The position numbers were made by a program, and so were the translations under genes. The notes beneath the pieces were generated by a model. It saw only the letters and a program-made list of their open reading frames with translations, ran no database searches and was not told the origin of the DNA. 64,000 nt of DNA from a virus (Duplodnaviria; Caudoviricetes), in IMG/VR virus record IMGVR_UViG_3300036778_000062, positions 32,001 through 96,000 of that record, one strand, 5' to 3'. This document shows, piece by piece, positions 4,318 to 18,332 of the stretch (position 1 is the stretch's first letter; every line of letters begins with the position of its first letter).

Positions 4318-5592
4318 ATGTCCTTCCTCGACAGATGGTTTAACAAAACCATTGACCTTAACGCGGCGAGCCAACCGTTTTGGAGCGGTTTCTTTGGCGC
4401 GAGGTCAACTTCTGGCGAGGAAGTCACATTTGATAGGGCCATGCAGCTCGATGCGGTGTGGGCGTGTGTCAATCTGATCAGCAATGCAATCGGAACGCTT
4501 CCGTGCATTGTTTATGGTGAAGACGGCGTTACGCCTGCAACAGATGACCCGCTTTACGACCTCTTGCACGACTTGCCAAACGTAGACGACACGGCACCAG
4601 AATTTTGGAATATGGTGGTGCTTTGTCTCCTGCTTGACGGCAACTTCTTTGCCGAGATCAAGCGCGTTGGTGGCAGGATTGTTGCTTTAAACCCGATGCA
4701 TCCGCTTGCGGTTCAGGTTAGGCGAGATCCTGAACGCGGATATGCCCGTTATTACGAGTACAATCAGCGTTTTTATATGCAGGCGCCGACAGGCGTGCGC
4801 CGCATTGAAGAAGTGGATATGTTTCACGTCCGCGGCCAGATGATTCCTGAGTGCGACCGCGGTCTTTCTCCGATTTATTTCGCGCATAATTCGATCGGGA
4901 ACGCCATTGCAGGCGAAAAAGCTGCCGGCAAGATGTTCAAGAGCGGCTTGATTGCGACCACTTTCCTGTTTGCTGACCAGGTTCTCAAGCCCGAGCAGCG
5001 AAAACAGATTGAGGATAGCCTCACAAAGTTTGCTGGGGCCGAAAAGGCCGGCGGCGTAACTGTGATGGAGGCGGGCATGAAGGCCCAGCCCATCACGATT
5101 AATCCGATTGACGCGCAAATGCTGGAGTCTCGGCAGTATAGCGTTGAGCAGATTTGTCGAATTTTTGGTGTCCCGCCCGTGATGATTGGCCACGCAGCCA
5201 ACGGCACGACGACTTGGGGTAGCGGGATTGAGCAACTGATCCTGCAATTCTACAAATCTTGCTTATTGCCTCTGGTTGGCCGCATCGAAGCGACGATTTG
5301 TCGAGATCTGTTGACGCCCCAGCAGCGTAAAAATCGCAAAGTGCGGTTTAATTTTACTGCGTATCTCGAAGGCGACAGCACCGCGCGCGCTAATTTCCTC
5401 ACCAAAATGGTTGCCGGTAGCATTTACACCGTCAACGAGGCGCGTGAGTACGAAAATAAGCCAGATGTCGAAGGTGGCGACAAGATTATTGCTAACGGCA
5501 CGATGACGCCGCTGGACAAGTTGGGCGAGCAGCCTGCAGCACCCGCACCACCCGTCACAAACGACAACAAACCACCCGCGAAGGCCGCATAG
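4318..5592 (+). CDS. Portal protein, HK97 family
   Basis: AVWACVNLIS, GLSPI, DAQMLESRQYSVEQICRIFGVPP, TVNEAR. Confidence 0.97.
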   Translation: MSFLDRWFNKTIDLNAASQPFWSGFFGARSTSGEEVTFDRAMQLDAVWACVNLISNAIGTLPCIVYGEDGVTPATDDPLYDLLHDLPNVDDTAPEFWNMVVLCLLLDGNFFAEIKRVGGRIVALNPMHPLAVQVRRDPERGYARYYEYNQRFYMQAPTGVRRIEEVDMFHVRGQMIPECDRGLSPIYFAHNSIGNAIAGEKAAGKMFKSGLIATTFLFADQVLKPEQRKQIEDSLTKFAGAEKAGGVTVMEAGMKAQPITINPIDAQMLESRQYSVEQICRIFGVPPVMIGHAANGTTTWGSGIEQLILQFYKSCLLPLVGRIEATICRDLLTPQQRKNRKVRFNFTAYLEGDSTARANFLTKMVAGSIYTVNEAREYENKPDVEGGDKIIANGTMTPLDKLGEQPAAPAPPVTNDNKPPAKAA

Positions 5593-5635: not shown

Positions 5636-6751
5636 ATGAATTACAAGCACATCCTTTCGGCATTTATCGCTGAACCGTGGGCCATGCAGCCCGAAAAACT
5701 GGACACATTGTGCCGGTTTGTCGAGTTTAAGGCCAATGGCGGCGTTTATTCCGCAGAGGAATTGGCTGCTCGTGGTTATACGAAAAAGAGTGTTGAATCG
5801 CAGAAGAATGCCGGTTCTGTCGCAATTATCCCGGTTTATGGCGTACTTGCGCAGCGCATGAACCTGATGTCAGAATTATCGGGCGGCACTTCATACCAAA
5901 TGTTGAGCGCGCAGTTGAACGCCGCGCTCACGGATGACGAAGTCAGCAGCGTGGTCCTGGATATTGATAGCCCCGGCGGTGGCGTCCCCGGCGCTCAGGA
6001 GTTGGCTTCTGAAATTTTGGCACTGCGTGGTGGCGATAAGAAGATTATCGCGCAGGTGAACTCGCTAGCGGCTTCTGCGGCCTATTGGATTGCGGCTTCG
6101 GCTGACGAAATCAATGTGACTCCTTCCGGTCGTGCCGGATCGATCGGTGTTTACACGGTTCACGAAGATATTTCGGAGATGCTGGCCAAGGAAGGCGTAA
6201 AGCTGACCTACATCAGCGCCGGAAAATACAAGGTTGAGGGTAACGAAACGGAACCGCTCAGTGCGGACACCAAGAAATTCATTCAAGCCAACGTTGATGC
6301 TTCTTATGCTGCGTTCGTAGATGGTGTCGCTGCTGGCCGCGGCGTCACCTCAGAATACGTGGAAGACAATTTTGGCCAGGGCCGTGTTTTTGGTGCGAAG
6401 CAATTAGTCAAGCGCGGCATGGCGAATCGTGTTGCCACGCTGAATGAGACCCTTGCTGCGTTAGGCGCAGACGTCTCGGCTCCGACTGCCCACATCAGCG
6501 TTGCAAACATGGCGCGCAAAGACGCTGCCGCCACGCTGGCAACCAAAATTCGCGCTGGCGAACCGATTACCAAAAGAGAATTTGAGAACGGCATCAAGGG
6601 ACTTGTTGGCTGTTCGAATGCAGAGGCAGAGCGCGCCGCGCGGCTCTACCTCAAAGACGGTCAGGGGGATCCTGATGACGCCGGTAATGTGGCGGCTTTA
6701 GCCGCGATTGACCGCGTGTTGGCTGAGGCCAAGACGTTTCCCCTGTCATAG
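5636..6751 (+). CDS. Prohead protease, S49/SppA family
   Basis: LDIDSPGG, AASAAYWIA, GSIGV, SAGKYK motifs. Confidence 0.95.
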   Translation: MNYKHILSAFIAEPWAMQPEKLDTLCRFVEFKANGGVYSAEELAARGYTKKSVESQKNAGSVAIIPVYGVLAQRMNLMSELSGGTSYQMLSAQLNAALTDDEVSSVVLDIDSPGGGVPGAQELASEILALRGGDKKIIAQVNSLAASAAYWIAASADEINVTPSGRAGSIGVYTVHEDISEMLAKEGVKLTYISAGKYKVEGNETEPLSADTKKFIQANVDASYAAFVDGVAAGRGVTSEYVEDNFGQGRVFGAKQLVKRGMANRVATLNETLAALGADVSAPTAHISVANMARKDAAATLATKIRAGEPITKREFENGIKGLVGCSNAEAERAARLYLKDGQGDPDDAGNVAALAAIDRVLAEAKTFPLS

Positions 6752-6763
6752 GATATATTATTT

Positions 6764-7981
6764 ATGTCTACCGAAACTATTCTTGCCGACAAGATTGGCG
6801 AACTCGGCACCTCGCTGGCTTCCATCAAGGAGCAGGTGCAGAATCTTGGAGCTGATTTCACCGCGAAGCTTGCCGCTACTGGCGAAGTCTCGGCCGCAAT
6901 GACCGAAAAGACCGACAAGGCGCTTGCCTCGCTCGGTGAAGTCGTGACTCGCGTAGGTGAGCTTGAAAAGCGTGCTGCGCGCGCCAAGGACGACGTCCAT
7001 TCTGGTAAGGTGATGGGCCTTGGTGATCATTTGATTGCGTCGGAGCAATTCAAAAATACTGACGTTTCTGGCGGCTGGCGCGGTTCGATTCGAGTAGGCG
7101 TCGAGCGCGCTGACATCACCTCGGCCGACACCACTGTCGGTGCCGGTCGGTCTGCCGGAACGTCGCTGGTTCCTGGTGCCCGCGTTCCAGGCATTGTCAC
7201 GCCTCCGCAGCAGAAATTGAACATTCGCGACCTGATCGCGCCTGGCCAGACCATCTCCAGCAATGTGGAGTTCGTCAAGGAAGTTGGTTTTACCAACAAC
7301 GCGCGCCCGGTTACGGAAACAACCACCAAGCCGAAGTCGGACATCACGTTTAACCTCGTGTCCGCCCCGGTTCGCACGCTGGCCCATATCTTCAAGGCCT
7401 CGCGCCAAATCATGGATGATGCTCCGGGACTTGCGAGCTACATCAACGCTCGCGGCACCTACGGTCTTAAGTTGAAGGAAGAGGGTCAGCTTCTGACCGG
7501 TAACAACACCGGACAGAACCTGCATGGCATCCTGCCGCAGGCGTCCGCATTCTCTCCCGCCTTCACTCCTGACAGCGAGCAGGCAATTGACCGCCTGCGT
7601 CTTGCGCTGTTGCAGGTTATTTTGGCCAACTTCCCATCGTCTGGCTTCGTGCTCAATCCGACTGATTGGGCTGCCATCGACCTGACCAAGGACAACCAGG
7701 GCCGCTATATCGTCGGCAATGCGCTTTCCCCGAACAGCCCGGCCTTGTGGGGACTTCCTGTTGTGGAATCGCTGTCGATGACGGCAGGTACGTTCCTGAC
7801 TGGCGCGTTCAACCTCGGTGCGCAGATCTTCGACCGCATGGGCGTTGAAGTGCTGCTTTCGAGCGAGAACTCGGATGACTTCGAGAAGAACATGCTCACT
7901 GTACGTGTCGAGGAGCGCCTGACACTCGCTGTTTATCGCCCCGAGGCGTTCGTGACCGGCGATGTTTCGGCCTCGTCCTAA
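6764..7981 (+). CDS. Major capsid protein, HK97 family
   Basis: N-terminal coiled-coil delta domain, EEGQLLTG, LWGLPVV, VEERL...RPEAFV. Confidence 0.97.
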   Translation: MSTETILADKIGELGTSLASIKEQVQNLGADFTAKLAATGEVSAAMTEKTDKALASLGEVVTRVGELEKRAARAKDDVHSGKVMGLGDHLIASEQFKNTDVSGGWRGSIRVGVERADITSADTTVGAGRSAGTSLVPGARVPGIVTPPQQKLNIRDLIAPGQTISSNVEFVKEVGFTNNARPVTETTTKPKSDITFNLVSAPVRTLAHIFKASRQIMDDAPGLASYINARGTYGLKLKEEGQLLTGNNTGQNLHGILPQASAFSPAFTPDSEQAIDRLRLALLQVILANFPSSGFVLNPTDWAAIDLTKDNQGRYIVGNALSPNSPALWGLPVVESLSMTAGTFLTGAFNLGAQIFDRMGVEVLLSSENSDDFEKNMLTVRVEERLTLAVYRPEAFVTGDVSASS

Positions 7982-7990
7982 ACAATAAAT

Positions 7991-8013
7991 GGTGTGGGGT
8001 TCGGCCCCACACC
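7991..8013 (+). terminator. Stem-loop after capsid gene
   Basis: GGTGTGGGG-TTCGG-CCCCACACC perfect 9-bp stem; weak U tract. Confidence 0.6.
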
Positions 8014-8031
8014 GTTCCCTTGGAGTTTTTC

Positions 8032-8424
8032 ATGATAGTCCGCGCGCTACGAACGACGTTTGACAACAACTACGGCTCGTTGCATCAAGGCGCCGTCGCC
8101 GAAGTTGACGATTACACGGCGCGCGAGTTGATCGCACAGGGTTATGCGATCAAGGAATTGCCTCTTGCCCAGCAGGAGGCTGCGAATGACAACAGCCCTT
8201 TCGCCCAGACTGGTTCCCAGACTGGCGCGGATCCACTGCGGTCATTGTTGCTGGAGGACCTAGTGCAGGCTGCGCCGGTCTTGCCGCGGTTAAGCACAGA
8301 CCCGGAGTTCGCTTCCTCGCCATCAATAACGGATACAAGCTATGCCCATGGGCAGACGCTCTCTACGCCTGCGACTTCGACTGGTGGAAAGCGGAAGAGG
8401 GGGCGCCCTCGTTTGCAGCGCTAA
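8032..8424 (+). CDS. Small post-capsid protein (zero-frame product of frameshift gene)
   Basis: GGAG RBS, ATG 8032; compact N-terminal domain (GAVAEVDDYTARELIAQGYA) typical of genes after HK97 capsids, then low-complexity tail. Confidence 0.75.
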   Translation: MIVRALRTTFDNNYGSLHQGAVAEVDDYTARELIAQGYAIKELPLAQQEAANDNSPFAQTGSQTGADPLRSLLLEDLVQAAPVLPRLSTDPEFASSPSITDTSYAHGQTLSTPATSTGGKRKRGRPRLQR

Positions 8425-8840
8425 GAATTACGCAGGACGGATATAAGCCAAGGCCAGAGTGGGAATTGCGCGCCGTTACGTTGGTCAGAAACTGCGACAG
8501 GCTACTGTTTAACAGGTTTGGCGAGATTGGCTGGGGCGGCAACGGTGGCTTTCACGCGTTAAATCTGGCCATTCAGTTTGGCGCGCGACGTATTGTATTG
8601 GTTGGATATGATATGCGCGTCGACCACGGGACGCACTGGCACGGTGACCACCCGAAAGGGATGAATAATCCGGCGGCTGTGAACGTGAAGCGCTGGCGTC
8701 AAGTTCTAGACGCTCAGGCTGGGTTATTGAAAGAGATGGGCGTCGAAGTGTTAAACGCCTCCGCTGTTAGCGCGCTTGAAGCTTATCCCAAAATGACACT
8801 GGAAGCGGCGATATACGGTGGAATGAATGTCGCTGCTTGA
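8196..8840 (+). CDS. Maf/DUF115-like (sialyltransferase-fold) glycosyltransferase domain, reached by -1 frameshift
   Basis: Frame reads PDWRGSTAVIVAGGPS...AINN...WADALYACD...GGNGGFHALNLAIQFGARRIVLVGYDM; stop at 8187-8189 and no ATG/GTG/TTG until 8466. Confidence 0.75.
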   Translation, partial: PFRPDWFPDWRGSTAVIVAGGPSAGCAGLAAVKHRPGVRFLAINNGYKLCPWADALYACDFDWWKAEEGAPSFAALRITQDGYKPRPEWELRAVTLVRNCDRLLFNRFGEIGWGGNGGFHALNLAIQFGARRIVLVGYDMRVDHGTHWHGDHPKGMNNPAAVNVKRWRQVLDAQAGLLKEMGVEVLNASAVSALEAYPKMTLEAAIYGGMNVAA

Positions 8841-9204
8841 TCTTGATCTCATCAAAAGTCATTTAAGGGTGGACGATACCGAATCGGATACGCTGATTGC
8901 AGCGTACCAGGCAGCCGCCGAAAGTATCGTTGCACAGTATCTCGACCGAGATGTGTATGCAGTTGGCGATTCTCCGGTGCCGACCGATCCATATGCGATT
9001 GAATTGCAGCCTCCAATGGTTGCGGCCATACTGCTGTTGATCGGCGATATGTACCTTTCTCGGGAAACTGAAGACACCGATTTCCAGAGAAGGCCCGTTG
9101 TTGGATTTCCGGCCGTCTTGCCTCGTCCAGTTCGCGCGCTGTTGGCTCCATATCGCGTATGGCGCACAGTGAGCGAAGGCTATCACCACCGTGATTGCTT
9201 CTAA
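8827..9204 (+). CDS. Head-tail connector (HK97 gp6-like)
   Basis: IKSHLRVDD...LIAAY, AAILLLIGDMY.SRE, ALLAPYRVW. Confidence 0.92.
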   Translation: MSLLDLDLIKSHLRVDDTESDTLIAAYQAAAESIVAQYLDRDVYAVGDSPVPTDPYAIELQPPMVAAILLLIGDMYLSRETEDTDFQRRPVVGFPAVLPRPVRALLAPYRVWRTVSEGYHHRDCF

Positions 9205-9670: not shown

Positions 9671-9859
9671 ATGTCTGCACCTATCCTTAAATATTTTGCA
9701 TACGAGCATTTGCCTGAACAGCTTCAGGCCGTGAGCGCACCGCTTGGAGTTGTTGCGGACTTGATGGACGGGTCTCTTCCTGATGGTGCAGAGAAATCTG
9801 CGGGGCTGCGAAAACTGCTTGAGGCTAAGGACTGCTTTGTCCGAGCCAAACTTGGCTAA
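9671..9859 (+). CDS. Conserved small helical phage protein, possible Acb2/Tad1-hairpin-like nucleotide sponge
   Basis: YFAYEHLP...PDGAEKSAGLRKLLEAKDCFVRA is a recurrent phage motif; function is inference. Confidence 0.7.
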   Translation: MSAPILKYFAYEHLPEQLQAVSAPLGVVADLMDGSLPDGAEKSAGLRKLLEAKDCFVRAKLG

Positions 9860-10256
9860 GCCGCCGCTGCTACTGCATGGAATGTTCGGGCTGGGTGATA
9901 ACCTTCATATCCGGGCGATTGTCCGCCAACTCATGCAGCGTTACGACGTCACATTAGAAACTTGCTGGGTTGCGCCGTTTCACGATCTGATTGCACAGGG
10001 CCTGCGCGTTGTTAACAAGCCCACTTCGCTAAGAACCCAAGCCAAAAACGCAAAACGTGAGGCCAGCCTGTTCTCCAAATCGCGCCCGGTCGGTGCCCAC
10101 ACTCGCAAGGTCTGGTATTCGCCGCAGGAAGTGCGGGACAATCGCGGCGTATTATCTGCGATGTGCCGCAACTGCGATGTGTCTTATGACAAGGCGGATT
10201 TTCGCCTACCCGTGAAACCTGAATGGGTCGCCGCTGCGAGGGCTGTAATAAATTGA
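9852..10256 (+). CDS. GT-B (GT9/heptosyltransferase-like) glycosyltransferase, N-terminal half
   Basis: GMFGLGDNL motif near N-terminus; ends DFRLPVKPEW linker. Confidence 0.7.
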   Translation: MAKPPLLLHGMFGLGDNLHIRAIVRQLMQRYDVTLETCWVAPFHDLIAQGLRVVNKPTSLRTQAKNAKREASLFSKSRPVGAHTRKVWYSPQEVRDNRGVLSAMCRNCDVSYDKADFRLPVKPEWVAAARAVIN

Positions 10257-10621
10257 TGATAGTGCCAAAGGTTTGGGGATCTGAGAAAGTTATCGTCAAT
10301 ACGCCGGGCTACTGCGGCAAGTTTCTTCGTGTCGCAGCCGGTATGCAGTGCAGCCTTCACAGGCACCGCATTAAGGATGAGACGTTTTACGTGGTCAGTG
10401 GCGTACTTAACGTCGAATTGGGGCCGACTCCTGACGAAGCACGCAACAATCCAATCGTAATGCATAAGGACGACAGCATTCGCGTTGCGCCCGGCTCGTG
10501 GCATCGCTTTGGTTCGGTCGACGGTGCGGTGATCGCGGAGTTTTCAACGCACCATGACGATGCGGACGTTGAGCGGGCGGAAGAGTCTGGGCCGCTTATG
10601 TACGGGCAGGGCGGTGCTTGA
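10256..10621 (+). CDS. Cupin (sugar isomerase-like)
   Basis: PKVWGSE, CSLHRHRIKDETFYV, PGSWHRF, EFSTHHDDADVER. Confidence 0.85.
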   Translation: MIVPKVWGSEKVIVNTPGYCGKFLRVAAGMQCSLHRHRIKDETFYVVSGVLNVELGPTPDEARNNPIVMHKDDSIRVAPGSWHRFGSVDGAVIAEFSTHHDDADVERAEESGPLMYGQGGA

Positions 10622-11177
10622 TAAGCCAATCCTGGTCTATCGCCCTCTGGTCGAGCGCACTGAATGGAATGGATGCGCCGCGCGTAACCCAGACCATAAT
10701 GCGTATGCCGAGCTGTATGCTTCAGTGAGAGATCGCTTCCATGTTGTCTCGATAGCGGATCTGGTGCCGGGAAAAGAGTGGATGGTTGGTCATGAGGTTG
10801 AAGTTGACCAGAAATTCCATGCCGGTGAATTGCCTTTCGAGACTCTTGCTGGGCTGTTTTCTATTGCGGCGATGGTATTTGCATCGCCTGGATTCGCGGT
10901 GATCCTGGCGCAAGCTGTAGAGACGCCGGTCGTGGCCGTCTTCGGCTCTTACGAGGCCAGTTATAGTTTTAGCGGTGGCGCGCGTTGGTGCCCGTACTTG
11001 GGAATCGACCCCATCAGGCCGTGCGACGATTTCAACCATAGCAATACGAAAGACAAAACCATTGACGTTGAAGCCGCCAAAGCCCGCATCGCCATATTCG
11101 CCGCCGAGGCGATCGAGCGTCACAATAGACGCGCCGAAGGCGGACTTGAGCGGGCTGCCAACGCGCTATGTGCATGA
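10614..11177 (+). CDS. GT-B glycosyltransferase, C-terminal half
   Basis: DKPILVYRP, LAGLFSIAAMV, ILAQAVETPVVAVFG motif; GTG overlaps cupin stop. Confidence 0.7.
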   Translation: MLDKPILVYRPLVERTEWNGCAARNPDHNAYAELYASVRDRFHVVSIADLVPGKEWMVGHEVEVDQKFHAGELPFETLAGLFSIAAMVFASPGFAVILAQAVETPVVAVFGSYEASYSFSGGARWCPYLGIDPIRPCDDFNHSNTKDKTIDVEAAKARIAIFAAEAIERHNRRAEGGLERAANALCA

Positions 11178-15081: not shown

Positions 15082-15609
15082 ATGAGCCGCAATCCCAGCG
15101 TCGATCGGTTCAGGGAAGACATGCACGACTTGGCCGCTCAGATGGCCAAAAACTTCCATGAGACGCTGCTGCTCCAGGCTGATGAGCTTATGCAAGATAT
15201 GTCTGACGCTATTGAACATAGCGTCAGTGGAAATTTGAAAGCGTCGCTCAGAAAAAAAGACGTGACCGAGCATTTTGGCGATATCGAACGCCCATCTGTT
15301 CTTGTCATTGCCGGTGGCCCGAAAACAACAAGGCGGACAAAAGCTGGCGTAGCTTTCGATTACGCAGTTGCAGAAGAATTTGGCACGCGAAACGAAGCAC
15401 CGAGACCATTCTTCTACAGCACGGCTCGACGATATCGCTCTCTAGCCCCGCCCGACTGGCAAGAGACCCTTGCAGCCACGATAGAAGAAAACAACAACAT
15501 GCGCAAAAACAGAGGCGATTATAATTACTCCACCTCTGATTTCAGGCGGACAGGCGCGGATGCTGGTGGCGCCATCGTTATCCAAAAAGGCAAAAGGCCA
15601 TCCTCATGA
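15082..15609 (+). CDS. HK97 gp10-like tail completion protein
   Basis: SGNLKASL, YAVAEEFGT...PRPFFY. Confidence 0.85.
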   Translation: MSRNPSVDRFREDMHDLAAQMAKNFHETLLLQADELMQDMSDAIEHSVSGNLKASLRKKDVTEHFGDIERPSVLVIAGGPKTTRRTKAGVAFDYAVAEEFGTRNEAPRPFFYSTARRYRSLAPPDWQETLAATIEENNNMRKNRGDYNYSTSDFRRTGADAGGAIVIQKGKRPSS

Positions 15610-16058
15610 GCGCTGATGGCTCTGTTGAATTGGTCTGGGCTGACGAGACTCGCAAATTCAGAATTGCGATCGGCGAGTTTCGTGACCTTCAGGAAAGCGT
15701 CAACACCAGGAGAGTTGCGATCGGTGCTGAGCCGATTGGCCCGTCTACCATATTGGCGGCACTGCGAACAAACAACGCGTGGCCCGATGACGTACGCGAT
15801 GTTTTGAAGGCCGGCCTGATCGGGGGTGGCTTGGCATTCGACAAAGCGCAGCGCTTGCTGGTGAGGCACTTTGACAACAAGCCGCTGTTGGCGCACACCA
15901 AGACTGCGTTCCTGCTTCTGCTGGCGGCCTTGGTTGGCGTTCCAGACGATGAAGTCTCAAAAAAAAAGATAGCGGAGACGGAAGAACCAGCCGCGGACTC
16001 TCCGAGCGAGACGAGCCAATCCGATTATCAGCCATCTATGGAAATGGCGCTGCAATAG
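15606..16058 (+). CDS. Tail assembly chaperone G (GTA gp10-like)
   Basis: LVWADETRKFRIAIGE, GLIGGG; position before TMP. Confidence 0.88.
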   Translation: MSADGSVELVWADETRKFRIAIGEFRDLQESVNTRRVAIGAEPIGPSTILAALRTNNAWPDDVRDVLKAGLIGGGLAFDKAQRLLVRHFDNKPLLAHTKTAFLLLLAALVGVPDDEVSKKKIAETEEPAADSPSETSQSDYQPSMEMALQ

Positions 16059-16210
16059 GCTTTACCCCGGCGCAGGTTGACGCCTGCTCATTCTGGCAGA
16101 TGCGCGCCTGCGTTGAGGGCTACAACAAAGCCAATGGGTCGGAAGACAAACTTGAGCCGCCGACAGACGAAGAATTTGAGCGCATGCTTATTGCGCACAA
16201 TGTGGAATAG
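15962..16210 (+). CDS. Tail assembly chaperone GT extension via -1 frameshift at A AAA AAG (15962-15968)
   Basis: -1 frame reads IYGNGAAIGFTPAQVDACSFWQMRACVEGY...PPTDEEF and stops 4 nt before TMP. Confidence 0.88.
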   Translation, partial: KKDSGDGRTSRGLSERDEPIRLSAIYGNGAAIGFTPAQVDACSFWQMRACVEGYNKANGSEDKLEPPTDEEFERMLIAHNVE

Positions 16211-16214
16211 ATAA

Positions 16215-18332
16215 TTGGCAAACGACCTCGTTGTCCAGCTCGGCGCCAGGCTGGATCAATTCCAGAGCGACATGAATCAAGCTGGCGACATCGCAGATAG
16301 CGCTGTCAGCAAGATTGAGCAGTCGTTTGCCAGCCTCAACCCCACGGCGGGAGGGTTTGGTGCGCTCGGCTTGTCTATTGCTGGAGCTACTGGATCTGTT
16401 GGAGCGCTTCTGACCGCTCTTGCTAGCGTCAATAGTGAACTGGCGGATATTCAGAAGAACGCTGCATTCTCCGGTATCTCGACGGACAGATTCCAGCAAA
16501 TACAGTTTGCTGCGGGGCAGGGCGGTGTCAGTAATTCGCAGTCCACGGCCGACCTGGCCAATGTATCCAAGTTGCTTGCTGATGCGAAGTATAACGAGAA
16601 CTCACTGACCAAGCTGCTTGATGAAAACAACATCAAGTACAAGGACAGAAACGGCCAGATTATCAATCTCAATCAGCTTTTGACGATTGCTGGTGGTCTG
16701 CTCGGCAAATTCGACTCTATCCCCGACAAGACGAAGGCTGCGCAGATGCTCGGCCTATCTCAGGGATGGGTTGAGGCACTCCGCAACGGCAGCAAGTCAT
16801 TCGAGGATGTTGCCCAGAGCGCCAACGATGCTGGCGTCATCATTGACTCGCAGACTATCGCAAAGGCGGCTGCATTCGATCGTGCGTGGAAGGCGTCAAG
16901 CGCGCAGTTGTCTGCTGAATTTAAAGCGGTCGCCGCTGACGTGGCTGTTTATCTCGACGGGCTGATTGATAAGGCCAACGGATTTATTGATTCGTTGAAC
17001 AAGGCCAATGGCACTGCGTCTGGAAGTGGTCAGACAAAATTCGATGCGTATGCTGATGCGCTGGCGATCGTCGCCAAGGATGCTAGCGGGGCGGCACAGG
17101 ATGTCGAGCAACTAACACGCGTTATTGATAGACTGCAGGCGTCCGGTAAGGGCGACCCTGAAATCGTCGCTGGTTTGGAGCTTATCCGCGCTAAAGCTCA
17201 GCTTGCAGCTCAGATGATTCAACAGGTCAACGAGCAGCAGTCGCAGGCAGCATTTCCTAGCGGCGTGCCGTTGCCGGCTGCAAGGCCCGCTGCAGCCAAT
17301 ACTCCAACTGGTGATGGGAGACTTCCGCATCGTGGTGGTGCTGGACCAGACCCAATAAAGGACGCTATTGATTCTCTGCAGAAGCATACGCTGGCAACGC
17401 AGGCCGATGCAGACGCTGTAGGCAAAGGCGCGGGAGCGCTAGCTGGTCTTCGGGTTGACGCAGCAGAGACGGCTGCCGTTTTAAAGAACGGCGGCAAGGA
17501 AACCGACGCTCAGGCAGACGCCTTTGGAGACCTTAGAGATCAGGCTGTTGCAGCCGCAGACGCACTGGCCAAGGCTAAGGTCAATAGCGACATCTCCCGC
17601 GGCCAGCAGACTGCGTTGTTCACGCCAGAAGACCTTGCGATAGCCAACCAGCTTAAGGGTATTTACGGCGACGACATCCCGAGGGCAATGGCATCAAGCG
17701 AGGCTGCGGCGCTGCGCTTTAACGACGCCATCAAACAACTCGGCCAGCTCGGCCAGCAGGTAAACTCGGGCTTTCTGGTTGACTTCGAAACCCAGATTCG
17801 CAATGGCGCGAGCGCTATGCAGGCGCTAGAGACCGCGGGTGTGAACGCGCTCGGAAAGATTGCGGACAAACTAGCGCAGATGGCCGCAGACAATCTGTGG
17901 TCAGCGGCGTTTGGTGGGTCGTCTGGTGGCGCTGGTAGCTTCTTTAGCAACATCTTTGGCGGCTCTGCTGGCGCTGCTGCTCAGGCCAAGTCGGCTAGCA
18001 CGCTTGCGAACAATACTGGAGGCGAGTTTTTCGGGCCTGGTTTCGCGAACGGCACAGACTATGCTCCCGGTGGCTTGTCGCTTGTCGGCGAGCACGGCCC
18101 CGAGATACTCAACATTCCCCGCGGCAGCCAGGTCATTCCTAATGATGTATTGCGTGGAGGTAATGGCAGCAATGTCAGCGCTCCTGTCAGCATCAGCATT
18201 GATGCGCGTAACGCAGATGCTGCGGGGCTGGCGAATTTGCAGGTGCAGTTGAATCAATTGAAAGCTGAGTTGCCGGCGAGGGTGGTGCAGGCTGTGACGC
18301 TGGCGAAGAGTAGAAGGACGCCGGGAGTCTAA
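16215..18332 (+). CDS. Tape measure protein
   Basis: Ala-rich helical 705 aa; C-terminal FANG...VGEHGPE...GSQVIPN. Confidence 0.95.
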   Translation: MANDLVVQLGARLDQFQSDMNQAGDIADSAVSKIEQSFASLNPTAGGFGALGLSIAGATGSVGALLTALASVNSELADIQKNAAFSGISTDRFQQIQFAAGQGGVSNSQSTADLANVSKLLADAKYNENSLTKLLDENNIKYKDRNGQIINLNQLLTIAGGLLGKFDSIPDKTKAAQMLGLSQGWVEALRNGSKSFEDVAQSANDAGVIIDSQTIAKAAAFDRAWKASSAQLSAEFKAVAADVAVYLDGLIDKANGFIDSLNKANGTASGSGQTKFDAYADALAIVAKDASGAAQDVEQLTRVIDRLQASGKGDPEIVAGLELIRAKAQLAAQMIQQVNEQQSQAAFPSGVPLPAARPAAANTPTGDGRLPHRGGAGPDPIKDAIDSLQKHTLATQADADAVGKGAGALAGLRVDAAETAAVLKNGGKETDAQADAFGDLRDQAVAAADALAKAKVNSDISRGQQTALFTPEDLAIANQLKGIYGDDIPRAMASSEAAALRFNDAIKQLGQLGQQVNSGFLVDFETQIRNGASAMQALETAGVNALGKIADKLAQMAADNLWSAAFGGSSGGAGSFFSNIFGGSAGAAAQAKSASTLANNTGGEFFGPGFANGTDYAPGGLSLVGEHGPEILNIPRGSQVIPNDVLRGGNGSNVSAPVSISIDARNADAAGLANLQVQLNQLKAELPARVVQAVTLAKSRRTPGV

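What the first reader, a model, noticed from the sequence alone, without database searches (positions are those of the whole stretch)
8032..8840. Unannotated -1 frameshift fuses a post-capsid domain to a Maf/sialyltransferase-like enzyme
Seen: the enzyme's conserved-looking N-terminus (PDWRGSTAVIVAGGPS...AINN...WADALYACD) lies in the -1 frame of the 8032 ORF. That frame has a stop at 8187-8189 and no ATG/GTG/TTG before 8466. In this narrow entry window sits an in-frame X XXY YYZ heptamer, C CCT TTC (8196-8202), followed by a CCAG-A-CTGG-TTC-CCAG-A-CTGG hairpin and preceded by AGGAGG (8174-8179). After the site the zero frame decays into low-complexity sequence. Inference: two products share a 57-aa putative virion-binding domain, and the minor one carries a glycosyltransferase. 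Alternative: ATG 8186 (good SD) with a +1 shift or a 1-bp indel or sequencing error.
Basis: partly seen in the sequence, partly recalled or inferred. Interest (0 to 1): 0.8.

Follow-up and report, generated by a model that had tools for sequence, protein, structure and literature searches.

The report
Conserved -1 frameshift fuses head-binding domain to enzyme
The small gene after this phage's capsid gene most likely makes two proteins: a 130-residue one, and, when the ribosome slips back one base at CCCTTTC, a 269-residue fusion of the same capsid-module domain to a sugar-transferase-like enzyme with no start codon, a layout found in about 75 other distinct phage and prophage loci.

Summary
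The ORF from ATG 8032 overlaps a -1 frame that is open from 8190 and has no ATG, GTG or TTG before 8466. That frame encodes a complete, confidently folded Maf/CstII-like enzyme. C_CCT_TTC (8196-8202) lies in register, inside the 5-codon entry window.

- About 59 of some 83 distinct enzyme loci have the same start-less enzyme at -1 of a small post-capsid ORF. So do all 17 adjacent pairs in an independent capsid-anchored sample.
- 50 of 52 distinct sites keep an in-register C_CCN, and 37 of these are C_CCT. The codon before it encodes 13 different residues.
- Relatives with their own start, and natural in-frame fusions, lack the Pro-Phe junction.
- Substitutions in the overlap fall on third positions of the enzyme frame.

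Sequencing error, pseudogene, start at TTG 8466 and a +1 shift from ATG 8186 are therefore unlikely. The proposed hairpin and the AGGAGG are present but are not supported as stimulators.

The shared domain resembles the head-binding domain of lambda gpFI. It also exists alone in phages without the enzyme. Tethering of a glycosyltransferase to the capsid is inference.

No frameshift product has been observed. I found no description in the literature. The scan met this layout before on two other genomes.

The parts
7988..8016 (+). Strong stem-loop between the capsid stop (7979-7981) and the small gene. Probably a post-capsid attenuator or stabiliser.
   Evidence: -22.7 kcal/mol, z -3.57, 0 of 200 shuffles fold as well; the stem is kept in 7 relatives, and one pair changes on both sides.
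8022..8034 (+). GGAG ribosome-binding site and ATG 8032, the start shared by both products.
   Evidence: read directly. The N-domain alignment starts at this Met in 33 relatives.
8032..8424 (+). Zero-frame ORF of 130 aa. Residues 1-44 form the folded gpFI-like domain. Residues after the slip site form an unselected, disordered tail.
   Evidence: AF2 pLDDT is 84-95 for residues 1-40 and about 55 beyond residue 50. Openness of the tail frame is the same as in stand-alone enzymes (p 0.53). Substitutions fall on zero-frame position 2.
8032..8163 (+). Small beta/alpha N-domain (DUF7302 / phrog_2616-like; resembles the C-terminal domain of lambda gpFI).
   Evidence: phrog_2616 E 6e-8. The profile finds 967 clusters. 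VIA Z 4.7, rmsd 1.3 A over 42 aa to 2lsm. hhalign E 1.8e-4 to gpFI residues 107-130.
8187..8189 (+). TGA that closes the enzyme (-1) frame upstream. It sets the 5' limit of the entry window.
8196..8202 (+). Slippery heptamer C_CCT_TTC, the proposed -1 shift site.
   Evidence: In register. Kept as C_CCT_TTN in all 11 distinct close relatives. C_CCN is kept in 50 of 52 distinct sites. C_CC.U_UU.C shows high-level frameshifting in E. coli (PMC4066793).
8202..8840 (+). Enzyme frame read after the shift: 212 codons plus stop. Fold is Maf/CstII/MptE-like. Predicted fusion is 57 + 212 = 269 aa.
   Evidence: phrog_4603 E 6e-49. AF2 pLDDT 94.9. VIA Z 15.0 to Maf 5mu5 and 13.0 to Cst-I. 49% of differences fall on third positions in the start-less part.
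8205..8225 (+). CCAGACTGG-TTC-CCAGACTGG inverted repeat. It is present but is most likely just the coding of PDWFPDW.
   Evidence: not significant, variable spacing, no covariation. The PDW-x-PDW motif is also present in stand-alone homologues.
8466..8468 (+). First in-frame TTG. Gene callers start the enzyme here (124 aa), so the call is truncated.
   Evidence: the close relatives are all called as fragments of 119-133 aa, which lack the invariant GPS, D62 and W66 columns.
8827..9204 (+). gp6-like head-tail connector gene. It overlaps the end of the enzyme gene by 14 nt.
   Evidence: PF05135 E 4e-10.

Best explanation
This is a conserved programmed -1 ribosomal frameshift. Ribosomes start at ATG 8032 and translate a 44-residue folded domain plus a linker.

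Most ribosomes are assumed to continue in the zero frame. They make a 130-aa protein whose tail is an unselected by-product.

A fraction slips back one base on C_CCT_TTC (8196-8202). In this slip tRNA-Pro moves from CCU to CCC and tRNA-Phe from UUC to UUU. These ribosomes then read the enzyme frame to 8840. The result is a 269-aa fusion with the junction ...NSPFRPDWFPDW....

In more distant relatives only the C_CCY tetramer is kept, so the common core is a single-tRNA slip by tRNA-Pro.

Shown here: the layout, its conservation, selection on the start-less part of the enzyme frame, and the folds of both parts.

Inferred: the N-domain is a head-binding module like the C-terminal domain of lambda gpFI. 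The fusion would then bring a CMP-sugar-type glycosyltransferase-like enzyme to the (pro)capsid. This resembles Gag-Pol, which fixes the ratio of a free structural or chaperone protein to its enzyme-bearing form. I put the frameshift itself at about 0.85. I put capsid targeting at about 0.45 and glycosylation of the virion at about 0.35.
For: (1) Sequence anatomy.

(2) In the sample of enzyme loci, about 59 of some 83 distinct loci have no start codon before the Rossmann GPS motif. 67 of 68 such loci carry the N-domain in the frame that puts the enzyme at -1.

(3) In an independent sample anchored on the capsid gene, all 17 distinct adjacent N-domain and enzyme pairs are at -1 and have an in-register C_CCN.

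(4) Site logo: 50 of 52 sites are C_CCN and 37 are CCCT. Elsewhere in these genes CCT is the rarest Pro codon (11%) and CCC makes up 23%. The preceding codon encodes 13 different residues but nearly always ends in C.

(5) Forms with their own start (P0005, P0010, P0022, P1 PmgO, PAJU2 ORF010) and in-frame fusions (P0007, P0008, P0012, P0014, P0253, L038) lack the Pro-Phe junction. CCCTTT is therefore kept for slipping, not for the protein.

(6) In some loci the entry window is only 2 to 5 codons long and holds no near-cognate start (L070, L040, L077).

(7) In the 70-codon overlap, differences split 26/26/49% over enzyme-frame positions 1/2/3. In the rest of the gene the third-position share is 55%.

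(8) In E. coli, H_HH.U_UU.Y heptamers are among the most efficient, C_CC.U_UU.C gives high-level shifting, and C_CC.U = C_CC.C are among the six active tetramers (PMC4066793).

(9) Phage D3-like PMG1 has C_CCA_AAG at the homologous place (L108 2486-2492).

(10) The same phage has a canonical A_AAA_AAG tail-chaperone frameshift.

(11) The N-domain matches gpFI by fold, by profile and by gene position. It stands alone after the capsid gene in phages without the enzyme.
Against:
- No conserved downstream structure or correctly spaced SD-like stimulator was found, so the efficiency is unknown and could be low.
- Many distant relatives keep only a tetramer, which in E. coli gave at most a few per cent even with a strong pseudoknot.
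- A few loci, D3/PMG1 among them, do have an in-frame GTG, so independent initiation may coexist with the shift.
- The gpFI link is weak on its own (Z 4.7; hhalign probability 48%).
- The enzyme's fold is shared with pyrophosphokinases (MptE Z 11.4, thiamine pyrophosphokinase Z 10.7), so glycosyltransferase activity is not proven.
Confidence: 0.82

Rival explanations
1. The two genes are independent. The enzyme starts at TTG 8466 and is made as a 124-aa protein, and the upstream open stretch of its frame is not translated.
For: This is how gene callers treat it here and in close relatives (P0004, P0019, P0037, P0040: 119-133 aa).
Against: The 92 residues before 8466 align with full-length homologues. 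They hold the invariant G23, P24, D62 and W66 columns and the first half of a fold predicted at pLDDT 95. Differences there concentrate on third positions of the enzyme frame. The position of the first in-frame start varies widely between relatives.
Confidence: 0.04
2. The frame break is a sequencing or assembly error, or a recent inactivating 1-bp indel (a pseudogene).
For: A single window cannot exclude it, and reads could not be examined.
Against: The same -1 break at the same place occurs in about 59 distinct loci of one sample and 17 of another. These come from independent metagenomes, MAGs, isolate genomes (Ensifer, Pandoraea, Alcanivorax, Halomonas) and cultured phages (PMG1, D3-like) at 31-81% identity. 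There is continued purifying selection on both sides of the break.
Confidence: 0.02
3. The enzyme starts at ATG 8186 (AGGAGG lies 6 nt upstream), and a +1 shift within the next few codons brings it into the enzyme frame.
For: The ATG has a good SD spacing in the window. AATGAC is kept in most close relatives.
Against: - AATGAC is the coding of Asn-Asp in the zero frame.
- L008 has AATTAC and no ATG, yet keeps the layout. L088 and all distant relatives have no such ATG.
- The distance from AGGAGG to the ATG is 6, 12, 12 and 18 nt in four relatives.
- No +1-prone site follows the ATG.
- This reading does not explain the strict linkage to the N-domain or the in-frame N-domain fusions.
Confidence: 0.03
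4. The frame change is made at the RNA level: polymerase slippage deletes a base in part of the transcripts (an added base would give the wrong frame).
For: Transcriptional slippage is used by some bacterial and phage genes (review PMC5009743).
Against: Known slippage sites are long homopolymer runs. Here the runs are only C3 and T3, and in many relatives only C3 or C4.
Confidence: 0.02

Closest known systems
Tail assembly chaperone G/GT -1 frameshift of lambda-like phages (Xu, Hendrix and Duda 2004, cited from my own knowledge)
   Same: It is a conserved -1 slip on an X_XXY_YYZ heptamer inside a phage structural operon. It gives a short product and a longer one that share an N-terminus. This window has its own copy (A_AAA_AAG at 15962-15968, -1 frame open to 16210).
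   Different: The site lies in the head module, between capsid and connector. The added part is a complete enzyme fold, not a structural or chaperone extension. The zero frame does not stop soon after the site. The slip motif is C_CCY-based.
Frameshifts at the 3' end of capsid genes of Listeria phages A118/PSA, and the proposed capsid to gpFI-like MCP3 shift in TP901-1 (Popovic 2012 and Dorscht 2009, as cited in PMC4493119)
   Same: These are recoding events in the head module that involve tRNA-Pro sites and, in one proposal, a gpFI-like protein.
   Different: There the gpFI-like part would be the downstream extension of the capsid protein, and it was not seen on Western blots for TP901-1. Here the gpFI-like domain is the upstream, normally initiated part, and an enzyme is appended to it.
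Retroviral Gag-Pol and IS3-family OrfA/OrfAB
   Same: A -1 frameshift sets the ratio of an abundant small protein to a rarer fusion. The fusion carries an enzyme that has no start of its own.
   Different: These are unrelated proteins and hosts. In retroviruses the fusion is packaged, whereas here packaging or capsid association is only inferred.
Maf flagellin glycosyltransferases and Campylobacter CstI/CstII sialyltransferases (GT42); archaeal MptE
   Same: They are the best structural matches: Z 15.0 over 185 aa to Maf 5mu5, 13.0 to Cst-I, 12.6 to CstII and 11.4 to MptE 8sd5. There is a GPS motif after the first strand, as I recall for CstII.
   Different: Identity is only 11-17%. PF01973 scores below its gathering cut-off (19.5 against 34.6 bits). 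The protein has about 210 aa and no Maf flanking domains. Substrate and catalytic residues were not examined.
Lambda gpFI DNA-packaging chaperone
   Same: The gene sits between the major capsid gene and the head-tail connector gene. The head-binding C-terminal domain has the same small fold and a matching motif.
   Different: In gpFI the domain is C-terminal, after a helical domain. Here it is N-terminal with a short basic or acidic tail. The similarity is weak, and binding to the capsid protein is not shown.
Homologous enzymes in cultured phages: P1 PmgO, PAJU2 ORF010, D3/PMG1 Orf7
   Same: They belong to the same enzyme family (31-35% identity). D3/PMG1 has the same small ORF with the enzyme at -1, after the capsid gene.
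   Different: PmgO and ORF010 have their own ATG and no N-domain. None of these records annotates a frameshift.

Membership tests
Programmed -1 ribosomal frameshift site | Slippery X_XXY_YYZ heptamer (or Z_ZZN tetramer) in register with the upstream frame | tested here: met
   C_CCT_TTC at 8196-8202 with codons CCT and TTC in the zero frame.
Programmed -1 ribosomal frameshift site | Downstream ORF in the -1 frame that overlaps the site, has no initiation codon of its own and encodes a conserved protein | tested here: met
Programmed -1 ribosomal frameshift site | Site and frame relation conserved among diverged homologues while neighbouring codons vary | tested here: met
Programmed -1 ribosomal frameshift site | Stimulatory element: a downstream structure at 5-9 nt or an upstream SD-like sequence at a fixed distance | tested here: inconclusive
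   There is no significant or covarying structure, and the spacing of both candidates varies. Nascent-peptide or other stimulators were not examined.
Programmed -1 ribosomal frameshift site | Trans-frame protein observed | not testable with these tools
MptE-like / Maf / GT42 superfamily (PF01973; phrog_4603) | Sequence match to the family model | tested here: inconclusive
   phrog_4603 E 6.4e-49 over the whole profile. PF01973 scores only 19.5 bits against a cut-off of 34.6. Several homologues carry precomputed PF01973 hits.
MptE-like / Maf / GT42 superfamily (PF01973; phrog_4603) | Shared fold over most of the domain | tested here: met
   Z 15.0, rmsd 3.3 A over 185 aa to Maf. Z 11-13 to CstI/CstII. 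These stand well above the unrelated rows at Z 4-5.
MptE-like / Maf / GT42 superfamily (PF01973; phrog_4603) | Glycosyltransferase catalytic residues and CMP-sugar use | not tested
   The invariant columns are G23, P24, D62, W66, G120, G139, D141 and N189. They were not mapped onto the CstII or Maf active sites.
Lambda gpFI C-terminal head-binding domain | Fold and sequence similarity to gpFI residues about 83-132 | tested here: inconclusive
   VIA Z 4.7, rmsd 1.3 A over 42 aa. hhalign probability 48%, E 1.8e-4 over 24 columns.
Lambda gpFI C-terminal head-binding domain | Gene placed between the major capsid gene and the head-tail connector gene | tested here: met
   The window order is capsid 6764-7981, this gene, connector 8827. 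Lambda has E-FI-FII. A capsid-sized ORF ends within 250 nt upstream in 47 of 52 loci.
Lambda gpFI C-terminal head-binding domain | Binds the major capsid protein | not testable with these tools
   This needs a binding assay.
DUF7302 / phrog_2616 small phage proteins | Sequence match to the family model | tested here: inconclusive
   phrog_2616 E 6e-8. PF23976 scores 19 bits, below its cut-off of 24.9.

The most novel reading that the evidence does not exclude
Tailed phages of Proteobacteria, including Pseudomonas phage D3 relatives, use a Gag-Pol-like device. A -1 frameshift appends a Maf/sialyltransferase-like enzyme to a gpFI-like capsid-binding chaperone domain. A set fraction of the enzyme is thereby delivered to assembling heads, where it glycosylates the virion surface. 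It would work with co-occurring genes: a protein of about 315 aa and a SAM methyltransferase.
Probability: 0.3. Interest if true: 0.8.

Novelty: new variant of a known kind. Interest (0 to 1): 0.66.

Why it matters
This would be a second widespread recoding event in tailed-phage structural operons, beside the tail-chaperone G/GT shift. It would be the first that appends a whole enzyme to a head-module domain.

It corrects a systematic annotation error. The enzyme is called as a 119-133-aa fragment, or as two overlapping hypothetical proteins, in many metagenomic contigs, prophages and GenBank phages (PMG1 and other D3-like phages).

It gives a testable route to virion modification in Gram-negative phages. 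It also provides natural examples of C_CCY-based -1 slippage with no obvious stimulator.

Cultured D3-like phages of Pseudomonas carry the same layout, so the experiments can be done in a standard system.

Tried and rejected
- Downstream hairpin as stimulator: rejected as unsupported (z -0.87, no covariation and variable spacing).
- AGGAGG as a dnaX-type stimulator or as the SD for ATG 8186: the spacing is not conserved.
- Selection for a long zero-frame tail: none. The same frame is just as open in stand-alone enzymes. The tail is predicted disordered.
- Predicted complex of the N-domain with the mature capsid protein (collected): no verdict, so it counts neither for nor against binding.
- Sequence search of the PDB with the enzyme profile: only spurious DARPin repeats.
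- Ser/Thr-rich capsid C-terminus as a marker of enzyme-bearing loci: similar tails also occur in loci without the enzyme, so it does not discriminate.
- Pfam on the co-occurring proteins of about 315 and 372 aa: no family, so the 'GT-B' label of another note is unverified.
- First combined alignment A1 for folding a fusion: MAFFT misplaced the N-domain rows, so it was not used.
- Literature searches: no description of this frameshift. Popovic 2012 (PMC3442539) is not held and is cited through PMC4493119 and from memory.
- The genome search 'relatives' is not available for virus records.

Full report
**What is in the sequence**

The window's head module reads as follows:
- portal (4318-5592)
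- S49 protease (5636-6751)
- HK97-type capsid protein (6764-7981)
- the ORF in question
- a gp6-like connector (8827-9204)

The ORF starts at ATG 8032, preceded by GGAG at 6 nt, and runs to 8424, giving 130 aa. The -1 frame is closed by TGA 8187-8189. It is then open to 8840, and its first ATG, GTG or TTG is TTG 8466.

CCCTTTC lies at 8196-8202 with CCT and TTC as zero-frame codons, so it is a true X_XXY_YYZ site. It sits inside the five codons between the stop and the first conserved enzyme motif (PDWFPDW).

CCCTTTY is rare in the window: 7 copies on both strands against 11 expected. A tandem slip or a single tRNA-Pro slip gives the same 269-aa product (57 + 212 residues).

**Comparison, sample 1 (anchored on the enzyme)**

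The translated -1 frame (P0001) finds 351 relatives. They fall into three groups:
- The closest ones (73-99% identity) are all called as fragments of 119-133 aa.
- Others are full-length proteins of 200-220 aa with their own Met a few residues before PDWFPDW.
- A few, of about 250 aa, are single ORFs in which a domain like the window's first 45 residues is fused in frame to the enzyme.

I fetched 105 loci and classified them by script.
- About 59 of some 83 distinct loci have no start codon before the GPS motif.
- 67 of 68 such loci carry the N-domain in the frame that places the enzyme at -1.
- Stand-alone enzymes have no N-domain nearby.

**Comparison, sample 2 (anchored on the capsid gene, so blind to the enzyme)**

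I fetched 80 loci. All 17 distinct loci with an adjacent N-domain and enzyme have the -1 relation and an in-register C_CCN just before the enzyme begins. A further 49 distinct proteins are N-domain-only genes of about 56-90 aa with short Lys/Glu/Ala-rich tails.

A 52-aa stand-alone form sits between the capsid and connector genes in L111. The N-domain is therefore an autonomous head-module protein. When an enzyme is attached to it, the join is a -1 overlap or, rarely, an ordinary fusion. The fusion in L109 sits directly after the capsid gene. Its N-terminus is 38% identical to the window's.

**The slip site is conserved as nucleotides, not as protein**

Among 52 distinct sites, 50 are C_CCN and 37 are CCCT. 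CCT is the rarest Pro codon elsewhere in these genes (11%). The preceding codon encodes 13 different residues yet nearly always ends in C.

The window's clade (11 distinct loci of 69% identity or more, plus Ensifer L088 and others) keeps C_CCT_TTN. More distant beta- and gammaproteobacterial prophages keep C_CCT_TCG, C_CCT_ACG, C_CCC_N and similar. D3-like Pseudomonas phages have C_CCA_AAG.

Forms with their own start and in-frame fusions lack the Pro-Phe junction. The enzyme therefore does not need it.

In E. coli, H_HH.U_UU.Y heptamers are among the most efficient. C_CC.U_UU.C gives high-level frameshifting. C_CC.U and C_CC.C are among the six active tetramers (PMC4066793).

**Which frame is under selection**

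I examined a codon alignment of 14 loci. Differences in the 70 overlap codons split 1593/1588/3022 over enzyme-frame positions 1/2/3. Third positions thus take 49%, against 55% in the rest of the gene. The excess falls on zero-frame position 2.

The zero-frame tail is no more open than the same frame in stand-alone enzymes (p 0.53). It is predicted to be disordered. The start-less 5' third of the enzyme frame is therefore translated, and the zero-frame tail is a by-product.

**Stimulators**

The CCAGACTGG repeat is real, but it is the coding of PDW-x-PDW, a motif also found in stand-alone enzymes. The fold is not better than shuffles (z -0.87). Its distance from the heptamer differs between relatives because of insertions of up to 12 nt. 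No pair covaries.

AGGAGG encodes part of Gln-Glu-Ala. It lies 16 to 28 nt from the site in four relatives. I found no stimulator, so the efficiency is unknown.

**What the parts are**

The enzyme folds with pLDDT 94.9. Its best structural matches are:
- the Maf glycosyltransferase (Z 15.0, 185 aa)
- Campylobacter Cst-I (Z 13.0) and CstII (Z 12.6)
- archaeal MptE (Z 11.4)
- SteA and thiamine pyrophosphokinases (Z about 10.7-10.9)

PHROG 4603 ('alpha-2,3-sialyltransferase') matches at 6e-49, but PF01973 stays below its cut-off. Homologues in cultured phages are P1 PmgO, PAJU2 ORF010 (annotated 'structural protein') and D3/PMG1 Orf7.

Residues 1-44 of the N-domain form four short strands and a helix, with pLDDT 84-95 over residues 1-40. 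The profile finds 967 clusters of small phage proteins.

The fold resembles the GINS B-domain, the N-domain of ribosomal protein bL9, and the C-terminal domain of lambda gpFI (Z 4.7, rmsd 1.3 A over 42 aa). It also resembles prophage protein YqbF. hhalign aligns the domain's core motif with gpFI residues 107-130 (E 1.8e-4, probability 48%).

FI lies between E and FII in lambda, which is the same position. From my own knowledge of Popovic et al. 2012, cited in PMC4493119, that gpFI domain binds the capsid protein. This link is suggestive, not proven.

**Context**

Homologues of two downstream ORFs (9783-10256 and 10554-11177) occur in 27 and 29 of 128 enzyme-bearing loci and in none of 61 enzyme-less loci. 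A Methyltransf_24 gene occurs in 14 of 128 against 0 of 61.

The window also has a cupin and a Methyltransf_24 gene. This fits a small modification cassette, but the proteins of about 315 aa have no Pfam family.

**Rivals**

- Start at TTG 8466: contradicted by selection on, and invariant residues in, the upstream 92 codons.
- Error or pseudogene: contradicted by recurrence in independent assemblies and cultured phages.
- ATG 8186 with a +1 shift: the ATG is a by-product of Asn-Asp coding. It is lost in L008 and absent in distant relatives.
- Transcriptional slippage: there is no long homopolymer run.

**Novelty and limits**

I found no paper that describes this frameshift. The GenBank records of PMG1 and similar phages annotate two overlapping hypothetical proteins.

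Two earlier reports of this scan reached the same reading on other genomes. I re-derived it independently here.

No experimental product, no read evidence and no binding or activity data exist. The frameshift rests on comparative evidence, and the biological purpose is inference.

Noticed in passing
window 15606-16210: Canonical tail-assembly-chaperone (G/GT-type) -1 frameshift. ORF 15606-16058 carries A_AAA_AAG at 15962-15968 (AAAAAAA at 15959). The -1 frame stays open for 82 codons to 16210, just before the 705-aa tape-measure-sized ORF at 16215.
   Followed up: partly
window 7988-8016: Strong hairpin directly after the capsid stop (-22.7 kcal/mol, z -3.57), conserved in relatives and with no U-run. 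PMG1 annotates a terminator at the same place. It may attenuate or stabilise transcripts after the capsid gene.
   Followed up: partly
window 9783-11177: ORFs 9783-10256 and 10554-11177 match the two ends of a single gene of about 315 aa in relatives (L001 3942-4883, L002 3660-4622, L003 3194-4141). Here they flank a cupin gene (10223-10621). Their homologues occur only in enzyme-bearing loci (27-29 of 128 against 0 of 61). No Pfam family was found.
   Followed up: partly
L108 2340-3058 (Pseudomonas phage PMG1, HQ711985 5691-6409): PMG1_0007 and PMG1_0008 overlap by 166 nt in the same -1 relation. The highly efficient heptamer C_CCA_AAG lies in register at L108 2486-2492. The record annotates a GTG start for the enzyme and no slippage.
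   Followed up: partly
L107 2486-3055 (Pseudomonas phage PAJU2 ORF010); L106 1441-2103 (P1 pmgO): These are stand-alone homologues of the enzyme. PAJU2's is annotated 'structural protein', which hints at virion association. P1's is PmgO ('putative morphogenetic function'), overlapped upstream by the 51-aa pmgN in a different frame relation.
   Followed up: no
proteins P0141 (388 aa), P0272 (303 aa), P0196 (206 aa): These proteins are made of 2 to 5 tandem copies of the small N-domain. They suggest that the domain can act as a multivalent binding module.
   Followed up: no
capsid C-termini, window 7960-7978 and loci L114-L193: Capsid proteins of enzyme-bearing loci end in short Ser/Thr-rich tails (SASS, TMTTAA, SLTAS). 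Similar tails (TASGG, TGSGS) occur in enzyme-less relatives, so the association is unclear.
   Followed up: partly
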